From NCBI GenBank assembly GCA_016186955.1, contig JACPKP010000004.1:5942-69941 (forward strand): a stretch of DNA of 64,000 nucleotides. The letters are read 5' to 3'. This DNA comes from Candidatus Daviesbacteria bacterium (GTDB taxonomy: Bacteria > Patescibacteriota > Microgenomatia > Daviesbacterales > UBA10151). The notes beneath the pieces were generated by a model. It ran no database searches. It had not been told where the DNA came from and saw only the letters and a program-made list of their open reading frames with translations. The position numbers and the translations under genes were made by a program. Positions within the stretch are counted from its first letter, which is position 1, and the number at the start of each line of letters is the position of its first letter. This document shows, piece by piece, positions 20,701 through 57,464 of this stretch.

Positions 20701-20764
20701 TATAGGATTTTAGTTTTACATTGCGTTGAAAGAAAAGGGTGGAATTGTTACAATACTACCACTT

Positions 20765-20820
20765 GGGACCGTAGTGAACTGGTTATCACGGTCCGATGGA
20801 CATCGGACAGATAGCGGGTT
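20765..20820 (+). pseudogene. tRNA-Asp 5' partial duplicate (pseudo-tRNA)
   Basis: Its first 26 nt are identical to the intact tRNA-Asp 330 nt downstream (GGGACCGTAGTGAACTGGTTATCACG). The anticodon arm is diverged, the identity AGATAGCGGGTT is shared, and the sequence then diverges with no T-arm or 3' acceptor strand. Confidence 0.6.
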
Positions 20821-20840
20821 GATTGGTTACCAGGTGAAAT

Positions 20841-21104
20841 ATGGGAATAGTTTATATTTTAAGATCGTTAGTAAACGGAAGGTTTTACATTGGGTCGACG
20901 AATGATTTAGAAAGGAGATTTGGAGAACATAATTTAGGAAAATCAAAAGCGACAAAATTTACAGCGCCGTTTGAATTAGTCTTTAGACAGGAATATGATT
21001 CGTTAAACAAAGCCAGACGAGTTGAAAATAAGTTAAAAAAATTTAAGAGCAAGATAATTTTAGAAAAGATAATAAATGATAGTTTTATAACTTTGGGACC
21101 GTAG
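20841..21104 (+). CDS. GIY-YIG nuclease family protein (small, COG2827-like)
   Basis: IVYILRSLVNGRFYIGSTNDLERRFGEH. 87 aa. The stop codon TAG lies inside the 5' acceptor/D region of tRNA-Asp. Confidence 0.8.
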   Translation: MGIVYILRSLVNGRFYIGSTNDLERRFGEHNLGKSKATKFTAPFELVFRQEYDSLNKARRVENKLKKFKSKIILEKIINDSFITLGP

Positions 21105-21167
21105 TGAACTGGTTATCACGTCTCCCTGTCACGGAGAAGATAGCGGGTTCGATTCCCGTCGGTCCCG
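21095..21167 (+). tRNA. tRNA-Asp (anticodon GTC)
   Basis: GGGACCG-TA-GTGA-ACTGGTTA-TCAC-G-TCTCC-CTGTCAC-GGAGA-AGATA-GCGGG-TTCGATT-CCCGT-CGGTCCC-G. Confidence 0.9.
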
Positions 21168-21291
21168 CCTAGGCACTAAATTTTAATATTTCAGTCAGTT
21201 TTCCTGAAATTTGAAGTTAATAGTGTTCGAATTACATCAAGCGAATATTTAGTAAAATTCTGCAGAAATTAACTTTATTTTTAGTAAAAAG

Positions 21292-22162: not shown

Positions 22163-22361
22163 ATGTTAGTGAGTGAAATATAGCATAAAATATACTAAAG
22201 GAAGATCATTAGATTTGAATTACCATTTGTTACAAAGTTTTATGCTGATAAATTAAGCTGGAATATAGGTGTTCCAAATTTAAGCCTTCAAGCCCGCATA
22301 GGCTCGACAAGTTAATATTTACCAATTTTTAGTGAATTTTGAAGCTAAAAGTGTTCAAATC

Positions 22362-23094
22362 CTATTTAACGACAATTGAGTCGCCTGGGGAGATTATATA
22401 ATCTGCTGGTCTACGTGGGGATCTAAACTCTACCATGAAATCAGATTTCTGGTCACCTGATTTTATTAAATCTTGAATTAATTTCTCCTCGTCAAGAATA
22501 GAAAAATTATTATCCCCACCAAAATACCGAGCACAACTTGATTGATAACCTAAATCTTCAAGCATATTATTGGCTCTATCTTTAGCAGGGTAGTACCCAG
22601 AATGAGAACCCCCACAAAAAACTACCACTTTCGAATTTTGATCATTCTCCAATCTATCTCTAATAATTTCTGTCCATTGTCTATTCCTTTTACCAAATGT
22701 AGCTGACTGACTAGAGGCTAGGTATTCCTCGTTAGAAATATCCAATCCGTGTATATTCATCCCTAATGATTTAGCTAAAGAGTAAATTTCAAAATATTTA
22801 TCTCCCATACTAGGATCTTTATCATTCCAATGATCCTGTAAATATTGCCTTACTTTTTCTGAATCTGTAGTATCAAATCCCTTTGGTAACATTTCTAAAG
22901 CAAGATCTGTTACCCCCCCCCTCGGCCAATCTCTCTAGAGCACCTTTGAAGGCTTCTTTATCTGTAAAAGAGGTATGGCTATCGTTGATGAACAAAACTC
23001 TATTATTTCCAAGAATTTTACCATAATCAACTGGTTCTGGGTCACCAACTTCTTTTGTGCCTAATCCCAGTTTCACCTCATCATCCATATTCAA
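22362..23094 (-). pseudogene. hypothetical protein interrupted by a frameshift at a C9 (coding-strand G9) homopolymer
   Basis: ORFs 22873..23094 and 22362..22892 are adjacent, run in the same direction and overlap at the poly-C tract 22913-22921 (coding-strand GGG Gly codons). Joined they give ~245 aa. Confidence 0.55.
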
Positions 23095-23256
23095 ACTATA
23101 CCATAATCTGATCCTACATTTATTTGTTGCAAAGTTTTGTACTGATATAATAAACTTTGATATAGGTGTTCAAAATTTTTACCTTTGAGCCCGCTAGACT
23201 AACTGTGGGTGTCTTATAGTTGACTTCTGGGATCAATTTATGTTAGGATTGCTTTT

Positions 23257-23640
23257 ATGAAAGAGTATGTAAGACATCCTTTAGGCTCTCCATCTGGTGA
23301 ACCATTTGATGACAGAACTCAGGTTGAGCTGGAAGAAAAACCTACTCAACTAATGATGGCGACACACAATAACGTCGGCTTAGATGTGAGCAATCTATTA
23401 CAAACATTAGGTTTTGTGCAGGTTGAAGGAGAATCGGCAGGTGATTTGTTTTTAAGGAACACCCCAAAGAAAATTTTTAGTAGGGATTGGGCTATTTCTT
23501 ATCAAAAGGCAGAAAAGGGAGAAAAACGGGATCTTAACATTTTTACAATTTATCTCAATCATGGATCAGAGGTAGGTTATATGGATTTTCTGAGACAGAT
23601 TACAAACAGACAAGGTAGATACTGTGTTTTCTTCCCCTAA
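23257..23640 (+). CDS. hypothetical protein (cassette)
   Basis: 127-aa ORF about 60 nt downstream of a conserved repeat copy. No motif recognised. Confidence 0.4.
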   Translation: MKEYVRHPLGSPSGEPFDDRTQVELEEKPTQLMMATHNNVGLDVSNLLQTLGFVQVEGESAGDLFLRNTPKKIFSRDWAISYQKAEKGEKRDLNIFTIYLNHGSEVGYMDFLRQITNRQGRYCVFFP

Positions 23641-23870
23641 ATACAATTGGATTGCTTGAGACTCAACTCAAACGGGTGCCCTTTTCATGGGTAAAAAATT
23701 TCAAACTCTGCAAAGTTTTATACTGCTCCACTAAACTCTTATAAAGGTGTTCTAAATTTAAACTCTCAAGCCCCTCAATATTTTACGTTGCAAAAAATTA
23801 AAGAATATGGTATATTATTGTCATAAACGCCTCAGCTTGTGCGAAAGCCCGCTGAGGTTTTTTGTAATAT

Positions 23871-24461
23871 TTGTTTATGTCTAAGTGCATACTATTTATT
23901 GATGGCGAGAATTTTATACATAAAATTGAAGAGGTTTTAAAACAAGAGGGTATAAATAATAACAAAAAAGATTTAGCCTTAATAAACCTAAATAAACTTT
24001 TTAAAGAAGCATTGCAAGGCTTTGATTTTTCCAGAAAGATATTTTATGCCGCCAGACTTCACTTACACCCGGATACTAAAAAGAAATCAGAAGAACTTAT
24101 CAAACTCCAGCGCAAACTGCGCAACAATCTTATAAATCAGGGGTATGAATTCATTATCGCTGGGAATGTTAGAGCTCAAAAGGTGGGGAAGAGTGTGGTT
24201 TTCAGAGAAAAAGGTGTGGATGTAAAAATTGGTGTTGATATGACCTCGCTGGCTTGTGATAAAAAAATTGAAACTGCTATTCTTTGCAGTTCGGACTCAG
24301 ATTTACAACCTGCAATTACAGAACTTAAAGAAAGAGGTATAAAAGTAATCTATTTAGGTTTTGAAAACAATCCCAATAAAGGACTTACCTTTACCACAAA
24401 CAGAACAATCCTGTTAAGAAACTCTGAAGTAATTGAGGCTTGTCAAAACAGAAAAGATTAA
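23871..24461 (+). CDS. NYN/LabA-like (PIN-fold) domain protein
   Basis: N-terminal ILFIDGENF and the later ILCSSDSDLQPAI match the NYN-domain signatures (hhFIDGENh and hhSGDSDF). Confidence 0.6.
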   Translation: MFMSKCILFIDGENFIHKIEEVLKQEGINNNKKDLALINLNKLFKEALQGFDFSRKIFYAARLHLHPDTKKKSEELIKLQRKLRNNLINQGYEFIIAGNVRAQKVGKSVVFREKGVDVKIGVDMTSLACDKKIETAILCSSDSDLQPAITELKERGIKVIYLGFENNPNKGLTFTTNRTILLRNSEVIEACQNRKD

Positions 24462-24763
24462 ACTACACATAACTGTTGTAAAGCTCTATACTGTTCAACT
24501 CAACCCTGATACAAGTATTCCAGATTTGAACCCTCAAGCCCGCAATAAACCTATAGTTGCATTTTTATTTAAAATCTGTTACTATGCCTTGACTAAAGAA
24601 TGAGCTCAGATTAATTGTTATCCAAAGTTTATTTCTTTTGTTTTAATTCTCTTGCACTTTTAAATAACCTCTTAATACTACTGTGCAATTAGTGCATCTT
24701 AATTTTTGGTGTATTAATTGTGCAGTAGTACTGCATAAAATAATTTGTGCTAAGGAGGAACTG

Positions 24764-25546
24764 GTGAGAAAGGATCTTAAGTTTGAGGTATCCGAAGGAT
24801 TGACATTGTCGCTTGAAGATCTTTGGGCGAAAGTGTCTATCCGAACTAGCCCAAAGGGAATTGCAACAGTGGTTCTTGAGGGCGAAGAGAAGTTTATTAA
24901 CCAGGTGAAAGTGGAGCACCCAAACCCCTCTGAACTAACTCTCAAGGGTGAACAGGGTGGCAACACTGTCATTATGGGAGGCGGTTCCTCTATCGTCCTA
25001 GGAGGCCGGGGCAATGTTGTGATCGGCGGAAATATCCGAGGCAGTGTGATCTCATCGGGTAATCTCGTCATCATCAACGGCCGAGTGGTCTCTGGTGGCA
25101 AGGACGTGACTGTAACTTTGGGCGATGAAATGCTCAAGATTAAGATCACAGTCCCGGAAGGTACTGATCTCTCCAGCCATAGTGTTGAGGAACTCGATTC
25201 CAATGGACTTCGAGGAAAACTCTCACTTTCATTAAGCGGCCAGCAGCAAGCTGTTGTTGGTTTTGCCAAGAAGGTTAGGGTTTCCTGCAGCGGTCAGTCT
25301 GAGATTCAAGTTACCGAAGCTAGCGGAGATTTGAATGTCTCCACTAGCGGACAATCTTCTGTTGCCATCACAGGCAGCTTTGAAGATGTTGAGACTCACA
25401 GCAGTGGCCAAAGTCACATTGGAATCAACGGCAATTGCCGTAATTTCGAAGGTGACTCATCTGGCCAAAGCTCAATTTCGGTTTTGGGATCTGTCTCTGG
25501 CCGTGTGCGAAAGCACTCAAGCGGTCAAAGCAATATCCGAGTTTAG
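24764..25546 (+). CDS. beta-helix repeat protein with reiterated SGQS units (DUF4097/DUF2807-like putative adhesin head)
   Basis: Likely GTG start 6 nt after the AAGGAGG RBS (the track ORF starts upstream at 24683). Repeats: CSGQSEIQV, TSGQSSVAI, SSGQSHIGI, SSGQSSISV, SSGQSNIRV. Markedly G+C-rich relative to neighbours. Confidence 0.55.
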   Translation: MRKDLKFEVSEGLTLSLEDLWAKVSIRTSPKGIATVVLEGEEKFINQVKVEHPNPSELTLKGEQGGNTVIMGGGSSIVLGGRGNVVIGGNIRGSVISSGNLVIINGRVVSGGKDVTVTLGDEMLKIKITVPEGTDLSSHSVEELDSNGLRGKLSLSLSGQQQAVVGFAKKVRVSCSGQSEIQVTEASGDLNVSTSGQSSVAITGSFEDVETHSSGQSHIGINGNCRNFEGDSSGQSSISVLGSVSGRVRKHSSGQSNIRV

Positions 25547-25567
25547 TTGAGAGTTCGGCAAGAGAAA

Positions 25568-25607
25568 CCGCCCTAAGGGTTATAAACCCAAGGGGCGGAT
25601 TTTTTTG
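25568..25607 (+). terminator. rho-independent terminator
   Basis: CCGCCCTAAGGGTT-ATAA-ACCCAAGGGGCGG followed by T7. Confidence 0.65.
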
Positions 25608-26198
25608 TATATTTAAATATTGTTTAAAATGTAATTTGGGTACGCGTCCATTAAGGTATTTAATAGAGCTAATGATTCATATAAACCTACATTGCTCCCG
25701 CCTTCGTCTCGCTGAAGCTCGACTACGGCGAGGTAAACCCGTAAGTAGTCGAGCGTAAGCGGAAAGTATGAATTATGTGTATTTCTTGTTATGTTGGGAT
25801 GGAAAAATCTATACTGGTTCAACTAATAACTTATCCTTTGAACTTGAAAAATATTTTAAATCAGGTTCAGGAAGAGCATTTATGAAAAAACATAAACTGG
25901 TTGATCCTTAAAAATTTGCTATATTTTCCCCGTTTAACCCTGAGCCTGTCGAAGGGTCGATCCCGTATTAATCCTATAACTTGACTTTGGGTTTAAATTT
26001 GTTAAAATAATCCCACTTTAGAAATAAACCCAGATTAATTGTTATCTTGTTTTTGTTTCTTTTGTATGTTTTTTGCACATTAATTTTAGAATTTCAAATC
26101 CAATCCTTAAGCAAAGGTTTAAAGCAGGTAAAATAGCTTACCTTTTTTAAGTCTTTGCTTAGGTGGAAGCGGAGATAATAAACCGGAGAGTTACGTAA

Positions 26199-26612
26199 AT
26201 GACACATGCAGTGAGCGAAGTGTCTACTGAACAGTGCCTGCACTGGAAGGAAGAGGTGGCATTTATTGCCTCCATCAACCCATCCTTTTTGCGGGATGCA
26301 TGGCTAAACGCCATGGGTGGGCTAAACCCAGAGTACAATCTTCTTGAGATGCTTCTAAAGCCTCTCGAGGGACAACTCTGGTGGCATCTGACCCGCCATC
26401 CTCAGAAATGCAAATACCAAATGATCAAGCTTCTCGAGGAAAGGTTGGATCAGTTCCGTAACTGCCATTACTGGAGGAAACTCCTAGAAATAGCTGTGAC
26501 TCCAGGGATGGAACGGAGTGATTCTCATTTGAAGGATTGTGTGTTTTGTCAGAGGGACCTGCGGCAGATGAAGCCGAAGCTCCCTTACTACAAAGAGTTC
26601 TATAAACGCTAA
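26199..26612 (+). CDS. hypothetical protein (cassette; Cys/His-rich)
   Basis: 137-aa ORF ending with CVFCQ. Followed by the terminator GGGCGGT...ACCGCCCTTTTT at 26662-26692. Confidence 0.4.
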   Translation: MTHAVSEVSTEQCLHWKEEVAFIASINPSFLRDAWLNAMGGLNPEYNLLEMLLKPLEGQLWWHLTRHPQKCKYQMIKLLEERLDQFRNCHYWRKLLEIAVTPGMERSDSHLKDCVFCQRDLRQMKPKLPYYKEFYKR

Positions 26613-26820
26613 GCTAATGGGGACCACCTTCCCCCGAATGCTTAGTTCTAAGTGCTCATTCAAGGGCGGTTCTATATGGACCGCCCTTTTTATATCCCAA
26701 AACCTTGTAGGGTTTTATATTGAATCTTCAAACTCTTATAAAGGTGTTCCAGATTTGAACCCTCAAGCCCGCAAATAACTATAAGTTGACCCTTAAAGCA
26801 AGAAGTGTTATTATTGGTTC

Positions 26821-28291: not shown

Positions 28292-30106
28292 ATGGGTGAG
28301 GGTAAATTTTCCAACCGGCAGGTTGTCAAACTGCTCAGGTCTGTTGCGGCAGCGCTGACTCTTAAAAAAACTAACCCATTTCAAATCAGGGCTTATGAAA
28401 ATGCAGCAGATTCAATTGAACACCTTGACAGTGAAATTAAGGATGTTTGGGAAGAAGGCAAGATTGACGGTGTTCCCGGTATTGGCAAGAACCTGCAGGA
28501 ACATTTAAGTGAGCTTTTTAAAACAGGGGTAGTTAAACATTTTGAGTCACTTATGCGTGGAGTAAACCCGGTAATCTTTGACCTTTTGGATATCCCCGGC
28601 ATTGGGCCTAAAACAGCCCAGGAACTGGCTGAATTGGGCATTAAGGACTTAAACCATCTTAAGAGTGAAATCAAAAGCGGAGAGATCATAAAAAAGGGTT
28701 TTTCCGGAAAGATAGCTGAAAAAATTATGTCCGGCCTTGAGGAGTTGTCAGGCAGGGGCGGAAGGATGCTTTTGCCTTATGCTTCAGCCCAAGCGCAAAG
28801 GATTTTGGCGTACCTGCAAAAAAGCCCTTTGGTTTTGAAGGCAGATCCATTGGGTAGTTTAAGAAGGCAGGTTGCTACAATTGGCGATTTAGATTTCTCG
28901 GTAAGTGCCAAAAGCAGCAAAGAAGTTGTGGATTATTTTATCAAAATGCCTGGGGTGAGTCGAATCATAGATCATGGGACAAATAAGGCTTCTGTGGTTT
29001 TAAATTCAGGTTTGCAGGCTGATTTGTTGGTAGGGGAACCTGGAAGCTATGGGGCTCTACTGCAGCATTTTACAGGTAGTAAAAACCACAATATACATTT
29101 GAGAAGTATTGCAAATACAAAAGGATATTCTTTGAGTGAGTATGGGCTAAAAAAAGTCAAAAGTCAAAAGTCAAAAGTCAAAAATGGGGAAGTTTTGCCT
29201 TGCAAAACTGAAGATGATTTGTATGGGATACTTGGGATGGAGGTGCCGCCTCCTGAGATTAGGGAAGATACAGGGGAGATTGAAGCAGCCATCGCCCAAA
29301 AACTGCCAAAGCTGGTTGGGTTTAAAGATATCAAAGGGGATTTGCATACCCATTCAAACTTTCCCATGGTTAGCCCTTCACATGGGCCAGGTGCAAATTC
29401 CATAGATGAGATTATAACCAAAGCAAGAGCGTTAGGATATGGATATATTGGCATTTCAGACCACCCGCCAGGTTTCAGAACTACTACCAAGGATCAAATT
29501 GTTAAAATTCTGGAAAAGAGGACAAAAGTTATCCAAAATCTTAAAAAGAGCCTGCCTGCCGACCTGCCTGACGGCAGTCAGGGCAGGCAGGGTACAAAAA
29601 GTATCCGGGTACTTAATGGCCTCGAAGTTGATATTTTGGGTGACGGAAGTTTAAGCGTTCCTGATGAGATTTTAAAAACCCTAGATTACTGCATTGCCGG
29701 AATCCACTCGGGACACAGGGGTACTAAAGAGCAAATTACCAAAAGACTTGTGAAAGCCCTGGGAAATCCTTATGTGGATATAATTTCCCATCCTACGAAC
29801 AGGCTTTTAAACGAAAGAGAATCATCAGAAGCGGATTGGGAGGAGATTTTTAAGCTTTGTGCTAAAAATCAAAAAATTCTTGAGGTTAATGCTTACCCAA
29901 ACCGGTTGGATTTACGTGATGATTTGGTCAGGCAGGCTTTAAGTTTTGGGTGTAAGTTCATCATCGATACGGATGCCCATGAGGTTGCCCAGATGGAAAA
30001 TATGAAGTTTGGAGTTTCAGTTGCCAGACGTGGATGGGCAGAAGGGAAAGATATTATAAATTCTTGGGACTGGACAAAATTTGCAAAATGGTTTAAAATT
30101 AATTAA
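28292..30106 (+). CDS. polX: DNA polymerase X family protein with C-terminal PHP domain
   Basis: N-terminal 8-kDa/HhH region ([22 protein letters not shown]) and a C-terminal PHP domain (DLHTHSNF...GISDHPPG...IIDTDAHE). Confidence 0.85.
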
Positions 30107-30117
30107 GGTTTAAGTAT

Positions 30118-30669
30118 ATGGATCCGATATTTATTATTCTTGGAGCAGTAGCCGTAGCAGGATTTTGGCTATTGATGACTTATAACAGCTTAGTGACTCT
30201 CCGTAACAGAGTAAGAGAGGCATGGAGCCAGATTGATGTGCAGCTTAAGAGACGCTCATCTTTGATCCCCAATTTAGTTGAAGCTGTAAAAGGCTATGCA
30301 AAACATGAGAAGTCTGTTTTTGAGGAAGTGACCAAGGCTAGAAGCGCCATGGTTGGGGCAACCACCAAAGGGGAAAAAGCAGTAGCAAATGATATGTTAA
30401 CAGGGGCTTTAAAATCCCTTTTTGCTGTTGCTGAGGCTTACCCTGACCTAAAAGCTTCGGAGAACTTTAAACAGTTACAGGAAGAGCTCTCTGATACTGA
30501 AACTAAGGTGGCAGCTTCCAGGCAATTTTATAACACCAATGTTTTGGATCTGAACAACTCTTTGGAGATGTTCCCTTCATCTTTGATCGGATCCATGTTT
30601 GGTTTTACCAAAGAGGAATTCTTCAAAGCCTCTGAAGAAGAAAAAAAAGACGTGGAAGTGAAAATTTAA
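30118..30669 (+). CDS. lemA: LemA family protein
   Basis: N-terminal TM then [46 protein letters not shown], which is the LemA signature. Confidence 0.8.
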
Positions 30670-30672
30670 AAT

Positions 30673-30879
30673 ATGAATCAAGAAAACAAAGGGAAAATTG
30701 ATCCGTTATTCAGCCCTAATCCTGATCCTGATCTTCATGTGGAAATTATAGCTGTGGAACCTGTTTCTGTAGTCCCGATGAGTCGGGATCAGTTCCGTGA
30801 AGCCAATAGAGGTTATTTTGAGATTTTAGCCAAATACATGGGAAGGGAAAGAGCGGAAAAAGCCTGGAAGCTCATTTAG
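30673..30879 (+). CDS. hypothetical small protein
   Basis: 68-aa ORF 4 nt after the lemA stop. Confidence 0.35.
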   Translation: MNQENKGKIDPLFSPNPDPDLHVEIIAVEPVSVVPMSRDQFREANRGYFEILAKYMGRERAEKAWKLI

Positions 30880-30948
30880 ACCGGCTTGAAGCGGAAAAAC
30901 CAACTACCGATAGAATCCACCCCGTTGTTACTATAATAACCTGATGAA

Positions 30949-31040
30949 AGAACAAAAATCAGGCAACCCTATTTAAAAAACACATCTACTGAACATTTTG
31001 TGCTAAAATACTTCTGATATGGCTACTGTGAATACTGCAA
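30949..31040. repeat. direct repeat copy A (duplicate of the htpX promoter and first 7 codons)
   Basis: About 92 nt, roughly 85% identical to 31560..31650, including a 44-nt perfect core AGAACAAAAATCAGGCAACCCTATTTAAAAAACACATCTACTGA. Confidence 0.85.
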
Positions 31041-31067
31041 GGGAGTAGGATATGATATAATCATGTC

Positions 31068-31328
31068 ATGTCAAGACCCAAACAAGAGCTACAATTTAAG
31101 ATATTAATCGAACAGGATGAAGATGGGATTTATGTGGCTTCTGTACCAGAACTTCCTGGTTGTTATACCCAAGGAAAAACTTTAGAACAGGTTAGGAATC
31201 GGATTAAAGAAGCGATAGAACTGGTTCTAGAATCTGATCAGGAAATAAAAAAAGAAAAGTTACAATCTCCGAAACCAGCTTCTAATTTTTTTGGGATAGA
31301 AGAGATAACTGTCAGCAGTTATGCCTAA
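31068..31328 (+). CDS. hicB: type II TA system HicB family antitoxin
   Basis: FKILIEQDEDGIYVASVPELPGCYTQGKTLEQVRNRIKEAIEL matches HicB/UPF0150. Confidence 0.8.
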   Translation: MSRPKQELQFKILIEQDEDGIYVASVPELPGCYTQGKTLEQVRNRIKEAIELVLESDQEIKKEKLQSPKPASNFFGIEEITVSSYA

Positions 31329-31542
31329 ATTATCTCCAATTAATGCCAAAGAGTTAATTAAAATCCTACAGAAAAAAGGATTTGAGGTTATTCATCAAAA
31401 AGGAAGTCATGTCAGACTTAGATATCCAGATGGCAGAAAAACAACAGTGCCTATGCATGCCGGGGAAAAAATTGGAGTAGGATTGTTGAGGAAAATCTTA
31501 AGGGACGTGAATATCTCAAGAAGTGAGTTTGAAAAGAGATAA
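31321..31542 (+). CDS. hicA: type II TA system HicA family toxin
   Basis: AKELIKILQKKGFEVIHQKGSHVRLRYPDGRKTTVPMHAGEKIGVGLLRKILRD matches HicA/YcfA. Overlaps hicB by 8 nt. Confidence 0.8.
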   Translation: MPKLSPINAKELIKILQKKGFEVIHQKGSHVRLRYPDGRKTTVPMHAGEKIGVGLLRKILRDVNISRSEFEKR

Positions 31543-31559
31543 ATTAAGTTTTGAATGAC

Positions 31560-31650
31560 AGAACAAAAATCAGGCAACCCTATTTAAAAAACACATCTAC
31601 TGAGCATTTTGTGGTAAAATTTACCATAATATGGCAACTATAAATACTGC
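31560..31650. repeat. direct repeat copy B (native htpX promoter and 5' end)
   Basis: See copy A. Confidence 0.85.
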
Positions 31651-32581
31651 TTGGGATCAGGTTTCTTCAAATACATTAAAAACCTGGGCTATCATGATTT
31701 TATTTACCATCTTTGCTGTGGGGGTGGTTTATGTGATTACAACAGCCTGGCTTGGGCCTGATGTTGACGGCTTGGGGATAGTGGGGATGGCATTTATTGT
31801 GGCAGGGGTGATGAATTTTGTGTCATATTTTTGGTCTGACAAAATTGTGCTGGGAATCTCCGGAGCAAAGCCTGTGGATGAGAAATCAAACAAACAGTTA
31901 TACCATCTGGTGGAAAATTTATGCATTGCTGCAGGATTACCTACCCCTAAAATTTATACCCTTGAAGACAGCGCCCCGAACGCCTTTGCAACCGGAAGGG
32001 ATCCAAAACACGCAGCAATCTGTTTTACAACAGGAATCCTGCAAAAACTTAACAAACAAGAGTTGGAGGGTGTGACAGCCCACGAGCTTTCCCATGTCGG
32101 CAATAGGGATACACTTTTGTTGAGCGTTGTCTCTGTTTTAGTGGGTACAATCGCTCTTTTATCCGACTGGTTTTTAAGGTCGCTTTGGTTTGGCGGCGGC
32201 AACCGTGATAATGACAATAAAGGCAGCGCTATTTTTATGGTCCTGGCGCTTGTTGCGGCAATTTTAGCCCCGATTGTGGCAACTTTAATCCAGCTGGCAG
32301 TTTCCAGAAGAAGGGAGTTTTTAGCAGATGCATCAGGGGTGCTTTTAACCCGCTACCCTGAGGGGCTTGCAAGCGCATTGCTGAAAATCTCCTCAGATAA
32401 AGAACCCTTGGAGGCAGCGAACAGAGGTACAGCTCATCTGTACATAGTTAATCCCTTAAAAGGCCTGCCTGCCGGCAGGCAGGGCCATGATGCAGTAGGT
32501 TTTTTGGCAGGGCTTTTCAACACCCACCCCCCAATCCAGGCTAGAATAAAGGCTTTGCAGGAGATGGAAGGCAAAATTTAG
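31631..32581 (+). CDS. htpX: zinc metalloprotease HtpX (M48)
   Basis: TM helices plus HELSHVGNRD (HEXXH) and a downstream EFLAD glutamate. Confidence 0.85.
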   Translation: MATINTAWDQVSSNTLKTWAIMILFTIFAVGVVYVITTAWLGPDVDGLGIVGMAFIVAGVMNFVSYFWSDKIVLGISGAKPVDEKSNKQLYHLVENLCIAAGLPTPKIYTLEDSAPNAFATGRDPKHAAICFTTGILQKLNKQELEGVTAHELSHVGNRDTLLLSVVSVLVGTIALLSDWFLRSLWFGGGNRDNDNKGSAIFMVLALVAAILAPIVATLIQLAVSRRREFLADASGVLLTRYPEGLASALLKISSDKEPLEAANRGTAHLYIVNPLKGLPAGRQGHDAVGFLAGLFNTHPPIQARIKALQEMEGKI

Positions 32582-32583
32582 GC

Positions 32584-32877
32584 ATGCAGTTAACTTCTGA
32601 CCAGGTTAAAAAAGTAGCAAAACTGGCAAACCTGCCTTTGTCTGAAGATGAAGAAGAAAAATATGCCGGGCAACTCTCTGTAGTTTTGGAATACATCAAT
32701 CAGCTAAATAAAGTTGATACAAAGGGAGTTGAACCCACCTATAATGTTTCGGGAAATGAAAATGCCCTGAGGAGTGATGAAGCTGAAAGTTGTTTAACTC
32801 AAGCAGATGCTTTATTAAATGGGTCAAATATAACGAATGGTTTTTTTGTCACAAAAGGAGTTTTTAAGGAAGAATAA
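32584..32877 (+). CDS. gatC: Asp-tRNA(Asn)/Glu-tRNA(Gln) amidotransferase subunit C
   Basis: VKKVAKLANLPLSEDEEEKYAGQLSVVLEYINQLNKVDT is the GatC signature. 97 aa. Confidence 0.85.
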   Translation: MQLTSDQVKKVAKLANLPLSEDEEEKYAGQLSVVLEYINQLNKVDTKGVEPTYNVSGNENALRSDEAESCLTQADALLNGSNITNGFFVTKGVFKEE

Positions 32878-51337: not shown

Positions 51338-52012
51338 CTATGGGGTAGATTCCTGCACAAACTTACAATAAGAACAATCCCCGGAAGAATCAGGAATTTT
51401 TCCGTCCAGAATTTTTTTTGCTTCCATTATTTTATCCTCAACCCATGAGTCATTACCATCATAAGGCTGTACTTTAATATCAAAACTTAAATTGCCTTTT
51501 TTAAAACCCTTCTCCTTATTTACCCTGCAATAGACAAAATATCCCCTGTCCAAAACCTTAAACTTATTTTTTCTTAAGATCCACTGGTAGATTTCCATCT
51601 GGCGTTTGTAACTCTCATATAACTCTCCCTCTTTGGCGCCTGATGCTTTGTAGTCAACCACCATAAGGCTGCCTTTGGAGTCTACCCAGATGTCATCAAC
51701 CGCTCCAAACACTAAAAAATCAGTTTTTTTATGATGATACTGGATCCCGGTAAAAGTATTCCGCCATCTATCTATATCGTTGTGCATAAAGGGGATGGCG
51801 TCAATGCCTTCGCGGGTAATAAGGTAATGGGCTGTGCCGTTTTTGCGGTGTCCGTCAAATTCATTTTTGAGAAGAAAATCTACAGCATTGTTAATTGTGT
51901 AAGGAGCACCGAATGGGCGAGCAATACCCTTGCCGGCGTAAAGCCAGAAACAACGGGGACAGTCAAATAATAATTCTAATTTAGACCTCGATAATTTAAT
52001 CATATGGTTCAA
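51338..52012 (-). CDS. Cas4-like/RecB-family PD-(D/E)XK nuclease (DUF83), stand-alone
   Basis: N-terminal CPRC and C-terminal CSYC cysteines (Fe-S cluster pattern), VVDYK (D..K catalytic) and EIYQWIL (QxxxY) motifs. Confidence 0.55.
   Translation of the reverse strand: MNHMIKLSRSKLELLFDCPRCFWLYAGKGIARPFGAPYTINNAVDFLLKNEFDGHRKNGTAHYLITREGIDAIPFMHNDIDRWRNTFTGIQYHHKKTDFLVFGAVDDIWVDSKGSLMVVDYKASGAKEGELYESYKRQMEIYQWILRKNKFKVLDRGYFVYCRVNKEKGFKKGNLSFDIKVQPYDGNDSWVEDKIMEAKKILDGKIPDSSGDCSYCKFVQESTP
51946..52003. repeat. direct repeat copy 1 (native 5' end of the Cas4-like gene)
   Basis: 58 nt. All but 2-3 positions match 53104..53161. Confidence 0.85.
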
Positions 52013-52036
52013 AATTGAGATAGTTTGATCTAACTA

Positions 52037-53083
52037 TTATTTTCTTTTTTTACTTTTATCAACCAGCTTAACTGCTTTATTTGCAAAAGTCTCAAAATCC
52101 TTATCCGCCTTACTTAGATTTTTTAAACGGTTTTTGTAATAAACATTATATTCTTTTTCTGCCAATTCTTTTGCCAGTTCGTGCGAAATTTTGCCGGCGT
52201 CTTTTAAGATTTCTTTGTTATTGATCTGCAAAAAACTATTCAGCTTATCAATCCAATCTTTCATATACATTGGCACCCTCTGAATTGCCTGTCCCTGGGC
52301 AAACACAAGATATTGCTCGACAAGATTATTTAACACAAGAAGCTCTTGCTCGTTCAAGTAATTTTTGGCAATCACCACTTCTTCTTTTGTCGGTTTATTG
52401 CCTCTAAAGTTTGTTAATCCTACGTTTGGTTTTTTGCTATTCACTCTACCGGCAACTATTTCCGCAGCCGTACTTCCCGTAATCGCGTAATGGACTTTGT
52501 TTTGCACTGTTTTAAAAAATAGAATGCTTTGTTCGTCGGTCGGGTCATAGTCCACGCTGGTGGCATAAATATCAGTAATTTTCCTATAAAATCGTTTTTC
52601 AGAAGTGCGAATGTCCGCGATTCGTCGCGTCAAATCTTCAAAATAATCAAACGGCAAATCAGGATTTTTTAATCGCTCATCATCCAATACAAACCCTTTG
52701 ACAATATATTCGCGCAAGCGCGCTGTTGCCCACTGACGAAACGAAGTAGCAATAGAGCTTTTGACACGGTAACCTATAGAAATGATCAAATCCAAATTAT
52801 AGTATTCTAAATTTCGCGAAACCTCACGCTCACCTTCTTTTTGAACTGTTAAGTAATTCTTAACAGTTGCATTTTGAACTAACTCGCCTTCTCCAAAAAT
52901 ATTTTTTACATGCAGGCTAATATTATTTTTTGTTGTTTGAAACAGTTCTGCTAAAGCATTTTGAGTAAGCCACACCGTATCTCCGTCAAAACGCACATCA
53001 ATTTTTGTTTGCCCGTCTTCGGCTTTATAAATAATGATTTGTGATTTTTGATTGTTTGTTTTTATTCCTTTACTCTTAGACAT
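52037..53083 (-). CDS. rhuM: RhuM family virulence-associated protein
   Basis: IIIYKAEDGQTKIDVRFDGDTVWLTQNALAELFQTTKNNISLHVKNIF matches the RhuM N-terminal signature. Confidence 0.75.
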   Translation of the reverse strand: MSKSKGIKTNNQKSQIIIYKAEDGQTKIDVRFDGDTVWLTQNALAELFQTTKNNISLHVKNIFGEGELVQNATVKNYLTVQKEGEREVSRNLEYYNLDLIISIGYRVKSSIATSFRQWATARLREYIVKGFVLDDERLKNPDLPFDYFEDLTRRIADIRTSEKRFYRKITDIYATSVDYDPTDEQSILFFKTVQNKVHYAITGSTAAEIVAGRVNSKKPNVGLTNFRGNKPTKEEVVIAKNYLNEQELLVLNNLVEQYLVFAQGQAIQRVPMYMKDWIDKLNSFLQINNKEILKDAGKISHELAKELAEKEYNVYYKNRLKNLSKADKDFETFANKAVKLVDKSKKRK

Positions 53084-53103
53084 ATTATTTTTTATATCGT
53101 TTC

Positions 53104-53161
53104 AGAAACAACGGGGATAATCAAATAATAATTCTAATTTAGACCTCGATAATTTAATCAT
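53104..53161. repeat. direct repeat copy 2 (duplicated Cas4-like 5' end upstream of rhuM)
   Basis: Encodes the leader peptide MIKLSRSKLELLFDYPRCF*, which ends 16 nt before the rhuM ATG. Confidence 0.85.
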
Positions 53162-54853: not shown

Positions 54854-55066
54854 AATTCTGTTACATTTACATTCATTTCAATTTTTTCCTTCCACAATTG
54901 CAATTTCTTCCGGCGTCAATCCGTAGAGTTGATAAACTAATTGCTGGATTTGTTTTTTTGTTTCACATTATACTGCATATCCCGCCAGAATCAGGGACTA
55001 TTAAAAACCTGCCAAAAGATTAAAACCTTAGGTAGGTTTTATAGTATCATACACCAAATAATAAGT

Positions 55067-55495
55067 ATGGACAAATTTTCTAAAGAGAAGCGAAGTTTCA
55101 TCATGTCGCGGATTAAAGGTAAAAATACAGGTATAGAGTTAATTGTAAGAAAAAAGCTGTGGGCTTTAGGGTTTAGAGGGTATAGGATCCATTCATCCAA
55201 AGTTTTAGGGAATCCGGACATTACTTTTGGGAAGAAAAAAATTGCCATCTTTTTGGATGGTGATTTTTGGCATGGTTATGTCCTTAAGGAAAGGGCAGGG
55301 AAGTTGCCCATATACTGGTTAAATAAGATCAAGGGGAATATGGGTCGCGATGAAAAATATTCAAAAGAGTTAAGGGGTCAAGGTTGGAAAGTAATAAGGC
55401 TTTGGGAACACGAAATCACGGAAAACTTTGATAAGGCGGTTGCTAAAATTGTAAAGGCTCTTGGAGGGGTAAATACGGCCTGTCAAATTCCTTGA
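55067..55495 (+). CDS. vsr: very short patch repair endonuclease
   Basis: MDKFSKEKRSFIMSRIKGKNTGIELIVRKKLWALGFRGYRIH...IAIFLDGDFWHG matches Vsr. The ORF track starts at 54941, but the Met at 55067 fits the family. Confidence 0.8.
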   Translation: MDKFSKEKRSFIMSRIKGKNTGIELIVRKKLWALGFRGYRIHSSKVLGNPDITFGKKKIAIFLDGDFWHGYVLKERAGKLPIYWLNKIKGNMGRDEKYSKELRGQGWKVIRLWEHEITENFDKAVAKIVKALGGVNTACQIP

Positions 55496-56750
55496 ATTTA
55501 TCCATACTTACATCCTCAAATTTATTATTATCTAACATGGCTATTACACATTGCCCTATATGGTAACCTAGGTTTACAGGGACAGCATTTCCTATTTGTT
55601 TATATTGAGAGCTGGTTGATCCAACAAATTCCCAATCATCAGGAAAAGTTTGTAGCCTGGCATATTCCCTTATTGCCAAAGGCCGTGTTTCCTCCGGGTG
55701 GCAACGTTCGGTTTGTTTCTGGGCAGGCGCACAAGTTAAAGTTAAGCTGGGTTCATTCCAGGATAGGCGTCTTGCCATACCAGTTTTTCCACCACCTAAA
55801 TAGAAACTTTTTCCCATATACTCTTTTTGTAATCCAATAGGTAATGACTTCCAGTATCCACCAGGTGGGACTAATTCCATAATCTTCTTTTTTTTCTCCG
55901 GGTATTGTTGGCCTGGTGATTTTGGGCAACCTCTTAGCGCTTCGCGTAATGAAATTGTATAATCTTTTTCCTTTGGGAAAATGAATGGGATGTTTAAATC
56001 CTTTCGGATGGCAATAATTACCAACCTTTCCCTTTTTTGTGGGACATCCAGGTATTGTGACTTAAGAATTCGGTAAGCAACTTTATATCCTAAATCCCCT
56101 AAACTTTTAACCATTGTAGCTAAAGTCTTACCACTGTCGTGCATTAATAACCCCCTGACATTTTCACCTATCGCTATTTTAGGGTTAGTTTCCTCCACAC
56201 ACCTAGCGAACTGGAAGAACATTGTCCCTCTTATGTCGCCAAAACCTAAACCTTTTCCTGCATAGCTGAATGATTGGCATGGGAAGCCTCCCTGAACTAT
56301 ATTGACTTTACCTACCCATTTCCTAAAGTCGACATTTGCTACATCACCTTGGAGGATATTCCAGCTTGGCCGGTTTTTCTTTAGAGTCTCTACGCAATTT
56401 TTATCGATTTCGTTTAGGAGGATATGGTTTATACCTGCATTTTCAAAGCCTAGTGCAGTACCTCCTGCACCTGCGAACAGTTCAATAGCTGTGTATTTTG
56501 TCTTTTTGCCTGATTTCAGTATGCGGAAGTTATTGATAGTACTTGTTCCTTTAACCTTGGTTTGCACCCGCTGGAGTTCATCTATACTAAAGAGGCGGTA
56601 ATTGTGGTCTGACCTGGCTGATTTTATTAATCCCTTTTTCTCCCATCTTCTTATGGTATCAACAGAAACATCCAGTTTCTGGGCAGCCACATGGATAGTA
56701 AGCAGTTTATTCACTAAACTTATAATAATAGTAACCAATGCATAATGCAA
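55443..56750 (-). CDS. dcm: DNA (cytosine-5)-methyltransferase with N-terminal MerR-like HTH
   Basis: Motif I ELFAGAGGTALGF, motif IV GGFPCQSFSYAGK (PCQ), motif VI ENV. Converges with vsr and overlaps it by about 50 nt. Confidence 0.85.
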   Translation of the reverse strand: MHYALVTIIISLVNKLLTIHVAAQKLDVSVDTIRRWEKKGLIKSARSDHNYRLFSIDELQRVQTKVKGTSTINNFRILKSGKKTKYTAIELFAGAGGTALGFENAGINHILLNEIDKNCVETLKKNRPSWNILQGDVANVDFRKWVGKVNIVQGGFPCQSFSYAGKGLGFGDIRGTMFFQFARCVEETNPKIAIGENVRGLLMHDSGKTLATMVKSLGDLGYKVAYRILKSQYLDVPQKRERLVIIAIRKDLNIPFIFPKEKDYTISLREALRGCPKSPGQQYPEKKKKIMELVPPGGYWKSLPIGLQKEYMGKSFYLGGGKTGMARRLSWNEPSLTLTCAPAQKQTERCHPEETRPLAIREYARLQTFPDDWEFVGSTSSQYKQIGNAVPVNLGYHIGQCVIAMLDNNKFEDVSMDKFKEFDRPYLPLQEPLQF

Positions 56751-56771
56751 GGGTTATAATTATTACAGGAC

Positions 56772-57464
56772 TTATGAATAGGTTTTTTCGAATATTTCCT
56801 TGTAAAAGGGGTCATTAACAATAACTTTTAAAGGTTTGCCTAAAACATCTCCAGTTATTTGAGGGAGAATCTCGTATAACTGTTTTAATGCATCAGGTAC
56901 CCCACTTGCAAGGGCATAGAAAGTTTTTCCGTCAGTTACGTGAATACGGCCAACTGTTTCCCTAACTGTATGGGTTTTATTATCAGGTGGAGAAAAATCC
57001 TTGTCATAAATGTACCTATTTTTTGGTATAATTTCAACATAGTATGCAGTAAAGCCGGGGTATTCGCTATCTAATGCATACTTGAGGTTATCGTAAATTA
57101 CTACCTTGTCAGAACCTTTTGTTGTATTGTGCTTATTTTTTATTTCAGCAATTATTTTTTTCCCAACATTCCTTATGTCTATCAAGTGTCCAGTCCCTAA
57201 ATCCTCCCACCCAGGCATAGAGCCCAGGATCCTTTGGTGGAAATCCCCTAATTTGTTTTGCATTGATTTTTGCCCCTGCCTTACCCTTTCTAATTCCACC
57301 CACTTGGATAAAGTTATTCCCTGGATTGAAGCTTCAAACACAGCGGAAAAAGGATCAACAGCATTTTTATAAAAACTCTTTTCTGTCTCTTGCTTAATAT
57401 ATGAGAGCACCCATGAAACGTGTTTATGTAGGTCTTCGTCTTTAATAAATGTAAGTAAAGCCAT
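56772..57464 (-). CDS. putative type II restriction endonuclease (PD-(D/E)XK)
   Basis: 230 aa directly downstream of the C5-MTase. GHLIDIRNVGKKIIAEIKNK is a plausible D...(D/E)xK core. Confidence 0.4.
   Translation of the reverse strand: MALLTFIKDEDLHKHVSWVLSYIKQETEKSFYKNAVDPFSAVFEASIQGITLSKWVELERVRQGQKSMQNKLGDFHQRILGSMPGWEDLGTGHLIDIRNVGKKIIAEIKNKHNTTKGSDKVVIYDNLKYALDSEYPGFTAYYVEIIPKNRYIYDKDFSPPDNKTHTVRETVGRIHVTDGKTFYALASGVPDALKQLYEILPQITGDVLGKPLKVIVNDPFYKEIFEKTYS

What the first reader, a model, noticed from the sequence alone, without database searches (positions are those of the whole stretch)
30949..31650. hicBA module inserted upstream of htpX with a ~92-nt duplication of the htpX promoter and first codons
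Copies at 30949-31040 and 31560-31650 are about 85% identical with a 44-nt perfect core. Copy B runs into the real htpX start (MATINTAW...). Copy A ends in a 9-codon leader (MATVNTARE*) 19 nt before hicB. The TA cassette therefore captured a copy of the host promoter, 5'UTR and start codon. This gives it htpX-like (stress-responsive) expression and translational coupling to a decoy leader peptide.
Basis: seen in the sequence. Interest (0 to 1): 0.6.

Follow-up and report, generated by a model that had tools for sequence, protein, structure and literature searches.

The report
Insertion scar around a hicBA cassette
A 0.5-kb toxin-antitoxin cassette landed about eight codons into the protease gene htpX of a Daviesbacteria genome, and the 100-base repeat on either side is the scar of that insertion (one copy keeps htpX intact, the other is an orphaned promoter with a stub of the gene), a pattern that recurs around about a quarter of related cassettes sampled.

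Summary
A direct repeat of about 106 nt (30944-31049 and 31555-31661, 44-nt perfect core) brackets hicB (31068-31328) and hicA (31321-31542). Each copy holds an extended -10 promoter 9-10 nt before an ATG that opens with htpX codons. The two closest relatives have one promoter, no hicBA and no repeat, so the duplication came with the insertion.

hicB has its own extended -10 promoter (TGATATAAT) 6 nt before its ATG, and 27 of 28 related cassettes keep such a promoter, so no host promoter was needed. The genes look leaderless, so there is no real 5'UTR. Coupling to the 9-codon decoy is unlikely.

The repeat is best read as an insertion scar. Fourteen of 56 related hicBA loci carry flanking direct repeats, against 2 of 110 control genes. 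Most of these duplicate the end of a neighbouring gene (alaS, rtcB, a UVR-motif gene) or tRNA. The relic copies differ mainly at third codon positions (31 of 41), so they are diverged alleles brought in by recombination between lineages. The same window holds two more such scars. No recombinase lies next to the cassette, and the exact mechanism is inferred.

The parts
30118..30669 (+). lemA, the conserved upstream neighbour in the polX-lemA-htpX-gatC-gatA synteny
   Evidence: PF04011, E = 1.6e-57. The synteny holds in about 60 loci.
30673..30879 (+). orf68, a small fast-evolving ORF, counterpart of the 77-aa ORFs that precede the htpX promoter in L001 and L081
   Evidence: Shared motif M(T/S)RD.(L/F)REAN seen by eye in the translations; tblastn found no match. 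No Pfam hit. The only database hit is the window's own record.
30944..31049 (+). Repeat copy A: orphaned htpX-type promoter plus a truncated htpX start
31001..31009 (+). Extended -10 of copy A (TGCTAAAAT), 9 nt before ATG 31019
   Evidence: Motif scan. The same motif type precedes htpX in about 40 relatives.
31019..31048 (+). Decoy ORF MATVNTARE*; the first 7 codons are a normal htpX N-terminus allele
   Evidence: Sequence. MATVNTAW is the commonest HtpX start among relatives.
31053..31061 (+). hicB's own extended -10 promoter (TGATATAAT), 6 nt before the ATG; marks the left end of the conserved cassette
   Evidence: 27 of 28 related loci.
31068..31328 (+). hicB antitoxin, 86 aa, N-terminal HicB domain only, no DNA-binding domain
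   Evidence: PF15919, E = 4.9e-11, residues 10-61. Nearest solved structures are 2YZT (67 aa) and 6G1C. 1684 homologues at E <= 1e-5, most of the listed ones 86 aa.
31321..31542 (+). hicA toxin, 73 aa, overlapping hicB by 8 nt
   Evidence: PF07927, E = 1.6e-20. The GSH motif aligns with GGH of 1WHZ.
31543..31554 (+). 12-nt tail of the cassette between the hicA stop and copy B
   Evidence: Sequence. A similar tail, ATAAAGTTTTGAA, follows hicA in L113.
31555..31661 (+). Repeat copy B: the working htpX promoter plus the first 10 codons
31612..31620 (+). Extended -10 of copy B (TGGTAAAAT), 10 nt before the htpX ATG
31631..32581 (+). htpX (M48 peptidase, HELSH motif), intact
   Evidence: PF01435. 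90% identical to L001.

Best explanation
The repeat is the scar of a recombinational insertion, not a regulatory device. A minimal hicBA cassette (its own leaderless-type extended -10 promoter, hicB, hicA and a tail of about 12 nt; 31051-31554) was inserted about 8-10 codons into htpX. The event left two copies of about 100 nt of htpX promoter and first codons. Copy B keeps htpX intact and expressed. Copy A is an orphaned promoter that can only make a 9-codon peptide and read through into hicBA. The most likely route (inferred) is transfer of hicBA from a related lineage together with an adjoining piece of htpX. Integration would be by homologous pairing on the htpX side plus an illegitimate join on the other side (homology-facilitated illegitimate recombination), or by a single crossover of a circular fragment. 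Either route restores the gene and strands a partial second copy. What is shown: the anatomy, the absence of insert and repeat in relatives, the cassette's own conserved promoter, the enrichment of such repeats around this cassette family, and the allele-like divergence of relic copies in other loci. What is inferred: the recombination route, which copy is native, and all transcription and translation behaviour.
For: 1) Relatives L001 and L081 have one promoter, no hicBA and no repeat. None of 24 other Daviesbacteria with inserts between lemA and htpX has a second htpX promoter (scores <= 24, against 127 in the window).
2) hicB has its own TGnTATAAT promoter 6 nt before the ATG, conserved in 27 of 28 related cassettes. 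Sequence similarity among cassettes starts at that -10 and ends at the hicA stop.
3) Fourteen of 56 non-redundant hicBA loci have flanking direct repeats scoring above every one of 336 mismatched-flank controls and every inverted control. Only 2 of 110 other genes in the same loci do (Fisher p = 5e-6, odds ratio 18).
4) The duplicated pieces are gene or tRNA ends: the promoter and first 27 codons of alaS (L160), the last 26 codons of rtcB (L139), the last 15 codons of an upstream gene with only a sub-threshold ASCH hit (L104), the last 19 codons of a UVR-motif gene (L114), tRNA ends (L100, L136) and a promoter next to a putative tRNA (L131).
5) In four such loci, 31 of 41 differences between the relic and the working copy fall at third codon positions (binomial p = 4e-8), with 26 synonymous against 8 non-synonymous codon changes. 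The relic therefore evolved as a functional allele in another lineage.
6) In the window, the first 7 decoy codons (MATVNTA) differ from htpX by two synonymous changes and one V/I change, and that N-terminus is the commonest natural HtpX start.
7) Two more insertions in this window have the same form: a GIY-YIG gene at tRNA-Asp and a RhuM gene in a PD-(D/E)XK nuclease gene.
8) Precedent exists. One-ended homologous plus illegitimate recombination has been proposed to leave displaced relics (PMC5361080). Single crossover of circles duplicates 109-950 bp of the homologous locus (PMC3240628). [quoted passage not shown]
Against: No same-species empty site or donor was found, so the event itself is not observed. 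The uneven identity (95% over the 5' 66 nt, about 68% over the next 31 nt) is not predicted by a simple donor-recipient model; it needs a mosaic history or gene conversion. The window's own coding overlap is too short for the allele test. Comparison with L001 and L081 does not say which copy is native. Homologous pairing across about 100 nt at 85% identity is inefficient. The cassette ends are tight in many loci, which could point to a cassette-specific mechanism with defined ends. L015 carries a related hicBA at the same lemA|htpX position with no duplication. No transcript data exist.
Confidence: 0.68

Rival explanations
1. In-situ long target duplication. The cassette was inserted by a replication or repair event (template switching, or joining into widely staggered nicks) that duplicated about 106 nt of the local target. 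The copies were identical at first and diverged later, or the filled locus later spread to other lineages by ordinary homologous recombination.
For: The repeat abuts both cassette ends, as a target duplication would. The 5' 66 nt are 95% identical and are not conserved in any relative, so that part is a recent local copy. The two other scars in this window are 100% identical over 28 nt and 97% over 59 nt.
Against: Relic copies in L160, L139, L104 and L114 differ mainly at synonymous sites (31 of 41 at third positions). A neutrally decaying local copy would not show this unless an allele replacement followed. Identity along the window repeat is significantly uneven (p = 5e-4). No known enzyme makes 20-118-nt target duplications.
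Confidence: 0.2
2. Functional capture. The extra htpX-type promoter and decoy leader are kept because they give hicBA htpX-like regulation and couple hicB translation to the leader peptide.
For: Copy A retains a perfect extended -10 and an ATG, and its 5' 66 nt are 95% conserved. HicB lacks a DNA-binding domain, so it could not autoregulate by binding DNA itself, and outside control is conceivable. In L160 a decoy alaS ORF ends in an ATGA overlap with hicB.
Against: hicB's own promoter is conserved across the family. Most related cassettes have no such repeat (42 of 56). Many repeats duplicate 3' gene ends or tRNA ends, which cannot drive expression. The 19-nt gap has no Shine-Dalgarno sequence and holds two trapping ATGs. 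No stress element was identified, and the core is absent from relatives' htpX promoters.
Confidence: 0.08
3. Site-specific cassette. hicBA is a non-autonomous element moved by a recombinase encoded elsewhere, as with integron cassettes or att-flanked mini-islands, and the repeats are attL and attR.
For: Flanking direct repeats that restore the target gene end are the classic mark of integrase-mediated insertion, including at tRNA ends (L100, L136). The cassette ends are tight.
Against: No recombinase lies within or next to the repeat-bounded segment. The repeat sequences are unrelated between loci, so there is no common att core. The repeat has no hairpin potential, with z-scores from -1.1 to +0.7. 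No inverted repeats sit at the ends.
Confidence: 0.07
4. Assembly artefact: a chimera or a mis-joined repeat.
For: The source is a metagenome-assembled genome.
Against: The copies differ by 14% and carry an indel, and the perfect core is only 44 nt. The ORFs are intact. The independent Logan assembly breaks inside the core, as expected for a true repeat. Analogous structures occur in many unrelated contigs.
Confidence: 0.02

Closest known systems
[quoted passage not shown]
   Same: The insert lies a few codons into a housekeeping gene. The gene stays functional behind a second promoter and a slightly different N-terminal coding stretch. The displaced promoter and first codons remain at the other junction.
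   Different: Those elements are many kilobases long, encode a tyrosine integrase and an excision factor, and use one defined att site. Here the insert is 0.5 kb, holds only hicBA, has no recombinase, and the family sits at many unrelated sites.
Homology-facilitated illegitimate recombination and single-crossover (Campbell-type) integration (PMC3240628, PMC5361080)
   Same: One homologous anchor plus one illegitimate join, or one crossover of a circle. Both give an insertion with a stranded or duplicated piece of the anchor gene. Duplications of 109-950 bp were seen experimentally.
   Different: These were shown in the laboratory or proposed for T6SS and Rhs arrays. They have not been described as the usual footprint of toxin-antitoxin cassettes, and not in CPR bacteria. 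The route here is inferred from sequence only.
Toxin-antitoxin gene cassettes of chromosomal integrons
   Same: Small, promoter-bearing TA units bounded by repeats in variable regions.
   Different: No attC-like hairpin and no integron integrase nearby. The repeats are host gene sequence, not a cassette-borne site.
HicAB type II toxin-antitoxin family (Thermus 1WHZ and 2YZT; Burkholderia 6G1C)
   Same: A HicA domain with the conserved histidine and a HicB N-terminal domain, in overlapping genes.
   Different: The order is hicB then hicA, an arrangement also reported in ANME-1 archaea (PMC13385816). HicB is 86 aa with no DNA-binding domain. The promoter layout is leaderless-type.

Membership tests
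HicA toxin (PF07927) | Profile match above the curated threshold | tested here: met
   73.4 bits against a cutoff of 27, covering profile positions 1-58 of 58.
HicA toxin (PF07927) | Conserved histidine in the G-x-H motif | tested here: met
   KGSHVRL aligns with KGGHRLY of 1WHZ. That this histidine is catalytic is from my own knowledge of the family.
HicA toxin (PF07927) | mRNA interferase activity, neutralised by HicB | not testable with these tools
   Needs expression assays.
HicB antitoxin (PF15919) | N-terminal HicB-like domain | tested here: met
   43.3 bits against a cutoff of 27, residues 10-61. Matches 2YZT and 6G1C.
HicB antitoxin (PF15919) | C-terminal DNA-binding domain (RHH or HTH) used for autoregulation in the characterised HicB proteins | tested here: not met
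   The protein is 86 aa and nothing matches beyond residue 63. The nearest solved relative is the 67-aa TTHA1756. This is a short HicB variant, common in the family.
Type II TA operon | Two small adjacent or overlapping genes that travel together | tested here: met
   8-nt overlap in the window. The pair is kept in 62 of the 80 related loci.
Integron gene cassette | attC site: an imperfect palindrome that folds as a hairpin at the cassette end | tested here: not met
   Both strands of both repeat copies fold no better than shuffles, with z from -1.1 to +0.7. No inverted repeat at the ends.
Integron gene cassette | Integron integrase and attI next to the array | tested here: not met
   The neighbours are polX, lemA, orf68, htpX, gatC and gatA. 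The rest of the genome was not seen.
att-flanked integrative element | Direct repeats at both ends that include the target gene end | tested here: met
att-flanked integrative element | A recombinase gene inside the element, and one common att core across members | tested here: not met
   Only hicB and hicA lie between the repeats. The repeats of different loci share no sequence.
Insertion sequence or transposon | Terminal inverted repeats, a transposase and a short target duplication | tested here: not met
   No inverted repeats at the ends, no transposase, and a duplication of about 106 nt.
One-ended homologous or illegitimate recombination scar | The stranded copy is a diverged functional allele of the working copy | tested here: inconclusive
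   Met in related loci, with 31 of 41 differences at third positions (p = 4e-8). In the window only 7 codons can be compared: two synonymous changes and one V/I change.
One-ended homologous or illegitimate recombination scar | Microhomology at the illegitimate joint, and an identifiable donor | tested here: inconclusive
   The joint lies somewhere in 31040-31052, where GGGA and AGG match between the copies. No donor was found.
Leaderless-type transcription unit | A -10 element placed so that transcription starts at or within a few nucleotides of the ATG, with no Shine-Dalgarno sequence | tested here: met
   TGnTAnAAT lies 5-10 nt before the ATG of polX, hicB, htpX, the decoy, the 1205-aa gene at 36067 and others. 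The same holds for htpX in about 40 relatives. Start sites were not mapped.

The most novel reading that the evidence does not exclude
Small accessory cassettes of CPR bacteria and of the other small-genome organisms sampled here (hicBA, and in this window also a GIY-YIG gene and a RhuM gene) may move by a regular, integrase-free route. In that route they enter the first or last codons of housekeeping and tRNA genes while carrying a replacement gene end from their previous host. This would make them minimal homing units that spread between lineages through the conserved genes they sit in.
Probability: 0.2. Interest if true: 0.75.

Novelty: new variant of a known kind. Interest (0 to 1): 0.5.

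Why it matters
How chromosomal toxin-antitoxin modules move has long been unclear, because most have no recombinase, no terminal repeats and no obvious site preference. In this sample about a quarter of one very widespread hicBA family is bracketed by duplicated ends of neighbouring genes, and the stranded copies look like alleles from other lineages. That gives a concrete, testable route: import through one-sided homology with conserved genes. It would also explain how tiny genomes with few mobile-element enzymes still shuffle accessory genes. For annotation, it shows three things. Orphan promoters and stub ORFs next to small cassettes are scars rather than regulators. htpX and many other genes here probably start without a leader; the public record calls HtpX 21 residues too short. 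TA cassettes bring their own promoters.

Tried and rejected
- A 28-nt piece of the core was searched in metagenome contigs to find an empty site or a donor: no match.
- Exact-protein look-ups of HtpX, HicB and HicA, and of the NCBI-called HtpX (P0001), found nothing. orf68 found only the source record and one short Logan contig.
- Sliding nucleotide identity of htpX and lemA against L001 and L081 was used to look for a recombination breakpoint. No signal was seen; the relatives are about 18% diverged, too far for this test.
- The two copies were compared with L001 and L081 to decide which is native. The result is equivocal: the spacer favours copy A and the codons split.
- Rfam over the whole window found only six tRNAs. 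Folding the repeat showed no structure. The repeat is therefore not an RNA element or an attC site.
- The promoter and terminator scan missed the extended -10 promoters because they lack a -35, and it found no terminator between hicA and htpX.
- The idea that a 593-aa ORF near the RhuM insertion was a large serine recombinase was wrong; it is TypA/BipA. One Resolvase-domain ORF exists among the 48 ORFs scanned, but I did not locate it.
- Three of the 14 repeat-positive loci are not clean gene-end scars. L097 is a REP-like repeat with extra tandem copies, L105 looks like a GC-rich REP-like repeat (two copies in its locus), and L146 is a pair of paralogous small membrane genes.

Full report
**What is there.** The window comes from a Candidatus Daviesbacteria genome (CPR, Microgenomates). 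HtpX relatives come almost entirely from such genomes, and the exact HicB and orf68 sequences, plus an HtpX identical over the 295 aa that NCBI calls, belong to an NCBI Daviesbacteria record with a 206,757-nt contig. Reading 30600-32700 gives this order:
- lemA (30118-30669) and a 68-aa ORF (30673-30879);
- repeat copy A (30944-31049);
- hicB (31068-31328) and hicA (31321-31542);
- a 12-nt tail, then repeat copy B (31555-31661), which runs into htpX (31631-32581);
- gatC and gatA.

The 44-nt perfect core occurs twice in 64 kb, against none in 100 shuffles. The first 66 nt are 95% identical.

**Promoters and starts.** This genome places an extended -10 element (TGnTAnAAT) 5-10 nt before the ATG of many genes. 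Examples are polX, the 1205-aa gene at 36067, the genes starting at 57464 and 12316 on the minus strand, and two tRNAs at matching distance. Both repeat copies carry such an element: TGCTAAAAT at 31001-31009 and TGGTAAAAT at 31612-31620, 9 and 10 nt before their ATGs. About 40 Daviesbacteria htpX genes have the same layout, with no Shine-Dalgarno sequence. The genes therefore look leaderless or nearly so, and "5'UTR" is a misnomer. This rests on sequence only; starts were not mapped. The NCBI record calls HtpX from an internal Met (295 aa), which loses 21 residues that are conserved across the family.

hicB has its own element, TGATATAAT at 31053-31061, 6 nt before its ATG. In 27 of 28 non-redundant close relatives of the cassette a TGnTAnAnT motif lies 6-11 nt before the hicB start. 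Similarity between cassettes begins at that motif and ends at the hicA stop. The cassette is a self-contained unit of about 0.5 kb.

**Is it an insertion, and does the repeat go with it?** The synteny polX-lemA-htpX-gatC-gatA is conserved in about 60 loci. The lemA-htpX spacer ranges from 6 nt to 2.7 kb, so it is an insertion hotspot. The two closest relatives are L001 (HtpX 90% identical) and L081 (87%). Both have a 138-aa ORF (cut off at the contig end in L081), a 77-aa ORF resembling orf68, one TGTGATAAAAT promoter and htpX, with no hicBA and no repeat. None of 24 other Daviesbacteria with inserts at this spot has a second htpX promoter. L015 has a related hicBA (62% and 58% identical) between the lemA stop and the htpX promoter with no duplication. 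The duplication therefore belongs to this particular insertion. An assembly artefact is very unlikely: the copies differ, and an independent k=31 Logan contig (L162) stops 30 nt into the core, where a true repeat makes the graph branch.

**The same pattern elsewhere.** A metagenome scan with HicB returned 80 loci, and 62 of them hold a usable hicB-hicA pair. I aligned 300 nt upstream of hicB against 300 nt downstream of hicA.
- Fourteen of 56 non-redundant loci have direct repeats scoring above the maximum of 336 mismatched-flank controls (35) and of the inverted-orientation controls (34).
- Around 110 other genes in the same loci, only 2 do (Fisher p = 5e-6, odds ratio 18).
- L097 is a REP-like repeat with extra tandem copies, L105 looks like a GC-rich REP-like repeat, and L146 is a pair of paralogous genes. 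L085 (a short hairpin motif that also occurs in L093) and L108 were not resolved.

Eight of the remaining loci (besides the window) duplicate an end of a neighbouring gene or tRNA:
- L160: the promoter and first 27 codons of alaS. The decoy ORF reads into the hicB -10 and stops in an ATGA overlap with the hicB ATG.
- L139: the last 26 codons of rtcB.
- L104: the last 15 codons of an upstream gene that has only a sub-threshold ASCH hit.
- L114: the last 19 codons of a convergent gene with a UVR motif.
- L086: the promoter and first 5 codons of a weakly MazE-like gene.
- L100: the 3' end of what reads by eye as a tRNA.
- L136: the 5' end of what reads by eye as a tRNA.
- L131: a promoter next to a putative tRNA.

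L089, which scores just below the cutoff (31), shows a similar duplication of an upstream ORF's 3' region.

In the four protein-coding cases that can be read in frame, 31 of 41 differences between the stranded copy and the working copy fall at third codon positions (p = 4e-8). There are 26 synonymous and 8 non-synonymous codon changes. A dead local copy would decay evenly across codon positions. These relics diverged under selection for protein function, that is, as alleles in different lineages. The window fits this as far as its 7 comparable codons allow: MATVNTA against MATINTA, with two synonymous changes and one V/I change, and MATVNTAW is the commonest natural HtpX start.

**Two more scars in this window.**
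- A GIY-YIG gene (20841-21104, PF01541) lies between a degenerate pseudo-tRNA and the real tRNA-Asp. The first 28 nt of the pseudo-tRNA are identical to the real one.
- A RhuM gene (52037-53083, minus strand) lies after codon 19 of a PD-(D/E)XK nuclease gene. A 59-nt repeat at 97% identity flanks it, and the decoy MIKLSRSKLELLFDYPRCF* keeps the native GGAGG.

**Mechanism.** The repeat is an insertion scar. The best-fitting route is import of hicBA from a related lineage together with an adjoining piece of the conserved neighbour gene. Integration would use homologous pairing on that side and an illegitimate join on the other, or a single crossover of a circular fragment. Both routes restore the gene and strand a partial second copy. 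Both have precedent:
- a displaced-relic outcome was proposed for HFIR in Vibrio T6SS arrays (PMC5361080);
- duplications of 109-950 bp arise from single crossovers of circles in E. coli (PMC3240628).

L015 shows the kind of donor arrangement required, with hicBA directly upstream of the htpX promoter. [quoted passage not shown] Those are large and encode integrases.

Several points remain unexplained.
- The identity gradient (3 differences in 66 nt against 10 in 31 nt, p = 5e-4) needs a mosaic history or gene conversion.
- Which copy is native is undecided. The -10-to-ATG spacer of copy A resembles the relatives', but the codon differences split between the two copies.
- The cassette ends are tight, so a cassette-specific mechanism stays possible.
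- In-situ long target duplication followed by spread between lineages remains a serious rival.
- A recombinase acting in trans cannot be excluded from 64 kb of sequence. However, there is no common att core, no hairpin, no terminal inverted repeat and no recombinase next to the cassette.

**Consequences (inferred).** No terminator is predicted between the three tandem promoters at about 31009, 31061 and 31620. Transcripts from copy A would yield the 9-residue peptide. hicB and htpX would then be internal, SD-less starts on those transcripts, and so poorly translated. Two out-of-frame ATGs (31052 and 31063) lie between the decoy stop and the hicB ATG, which argues against reinitiation. Copy A's promoter, 52 nt upstream, could interfere with the hicB promoter. 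Nothing in the sequence indicates stress control.

**The TA module itself.** HicA has the conserved G-S-H motif and is closest to Thermus 1WHZ. HicB is the short form without a DNA-binding domain and is closest to 2YZT. The gene order hicB-hicA is known (PMC13385816). The family is very large: 1684 hits at E <= 1e-5, and the named records among the listed hits are CPR groups (Daviesbacteria, Saccharimonadales, Levybacteria).

**Verdict.** The regulatory reading is largely unsupported. The repeat is an insertion scar of a kind known for large integrative elements and for laboratory recombination, here attached to a minimal toxin-antitoxin cassette. It recurs often enough (25% against 2%) to be worth a dedicated study.

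Noticed in passing
window 20746-21169: A GIY-YIG nuclease gene (20841-21104) sits between a degenerate pseudo-tRNA (from 20763, behind the promoter TGTTACAAT at 20746) and the real tRNA-Asp (21095-21169). The first 28 nt are duplicated exactly (20763-20790 and 21093-21120). The ORF's stop codon lies inside the real tRNA.
   Followed up: partly
window 51945-53161 (minus strand): A RhuM-family gene (52037-53083) is inserted after codon 19 of a PD-(D/E)XK nuclease gene (51338-52012), with a 59-nt repeat at 97% identity. The decoy MIKLSRSKLELLFDYPRCF* keeps the native GGAGG ribosome-binding site. The real start now has none.
   Followed up: partly
window 22225-26815: Five copies of a repeat of about 75-110 nt (consensus ...TGTTGCAAAGTTTTATACTG...AGGTGTTCCAAATTT.AACCCTCAAGCCCGC...) lie between small accessory ORFs (NYN domain and unknowns). 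There is no Rfam match. It could be a cassette-array boundary or a shared promoter or RNA element.
   Followed up: partly
window 32461-32484 and 29551-29591: A GC-rich palindrome (CCTGCCTGCC...GGCAGGCAGG) lies in frame inside htpX, adding 7 residues (LPAGRQG) relative to L001 and L081. A longer version lies inside polX. A similar GCCTGCCGGCAGGCAGG sequence occurs upstream of hicB in L087 and L088.
   Followed up: partly
window 31631-31693: The public annotation of this genome starts HtpX at an internal Met (295 aa, P0001). That omits 21 N-terminal residues (MATINTAWDQVSS...) conserved in the relatives examined (about 50 loci), probably because the true start has no Shine-Dalgarno sequence.
   Followed up: yes
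L029 60-200: In another Daviesbacteria the htpX promoter is followed by a 26-codon ORF that begins with htpX's own MATI and ends in an ATGA overlap with a new htpX start (MKNVNTAW). An element of about 75 nt appears to have entered codon 5 of htpX.
   Followed up: partly
L015 3434-4001: A related hicBA (62% and 58% identical) sits at the same lemA|htpX position in a different Daviesbacteria species. It starts 2 nt after the lemA stop and has no duplication. This means either repeated targeting of this spot or exchange through the conserved flanks.
   Followed up: partly
L011, L014, L017, L021, L036, L044 (lemA-htpX spacers); L097 1916-2016: REP-like palindromic repeats of the type GTCATTGCGAGCG.AGCGAAGCAATCT recur in the lemA-htpX spacer of many Daviesbacteria and next to some hicBA cassettes.
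   Followed up: no
window 54941-57464: A restriction-modification cluster: a Vsr-like endonuclease, a C-5 cytosine methylase (its ORF not pinned down, probably 55443-56750) and an Eco47II-type restriction enzyme. It lies next to RadC, an AEP-like primase gene and tRNA-Lys, and is probably part of a variable island.
   Followed up: no
L112 275-523 and L140 3143-3859: The only two control genes with strong flanking direct repeats (scores 88 and 48) in the flank test. They may be further small cassettes with the same kind of scar.
   Followed up: no
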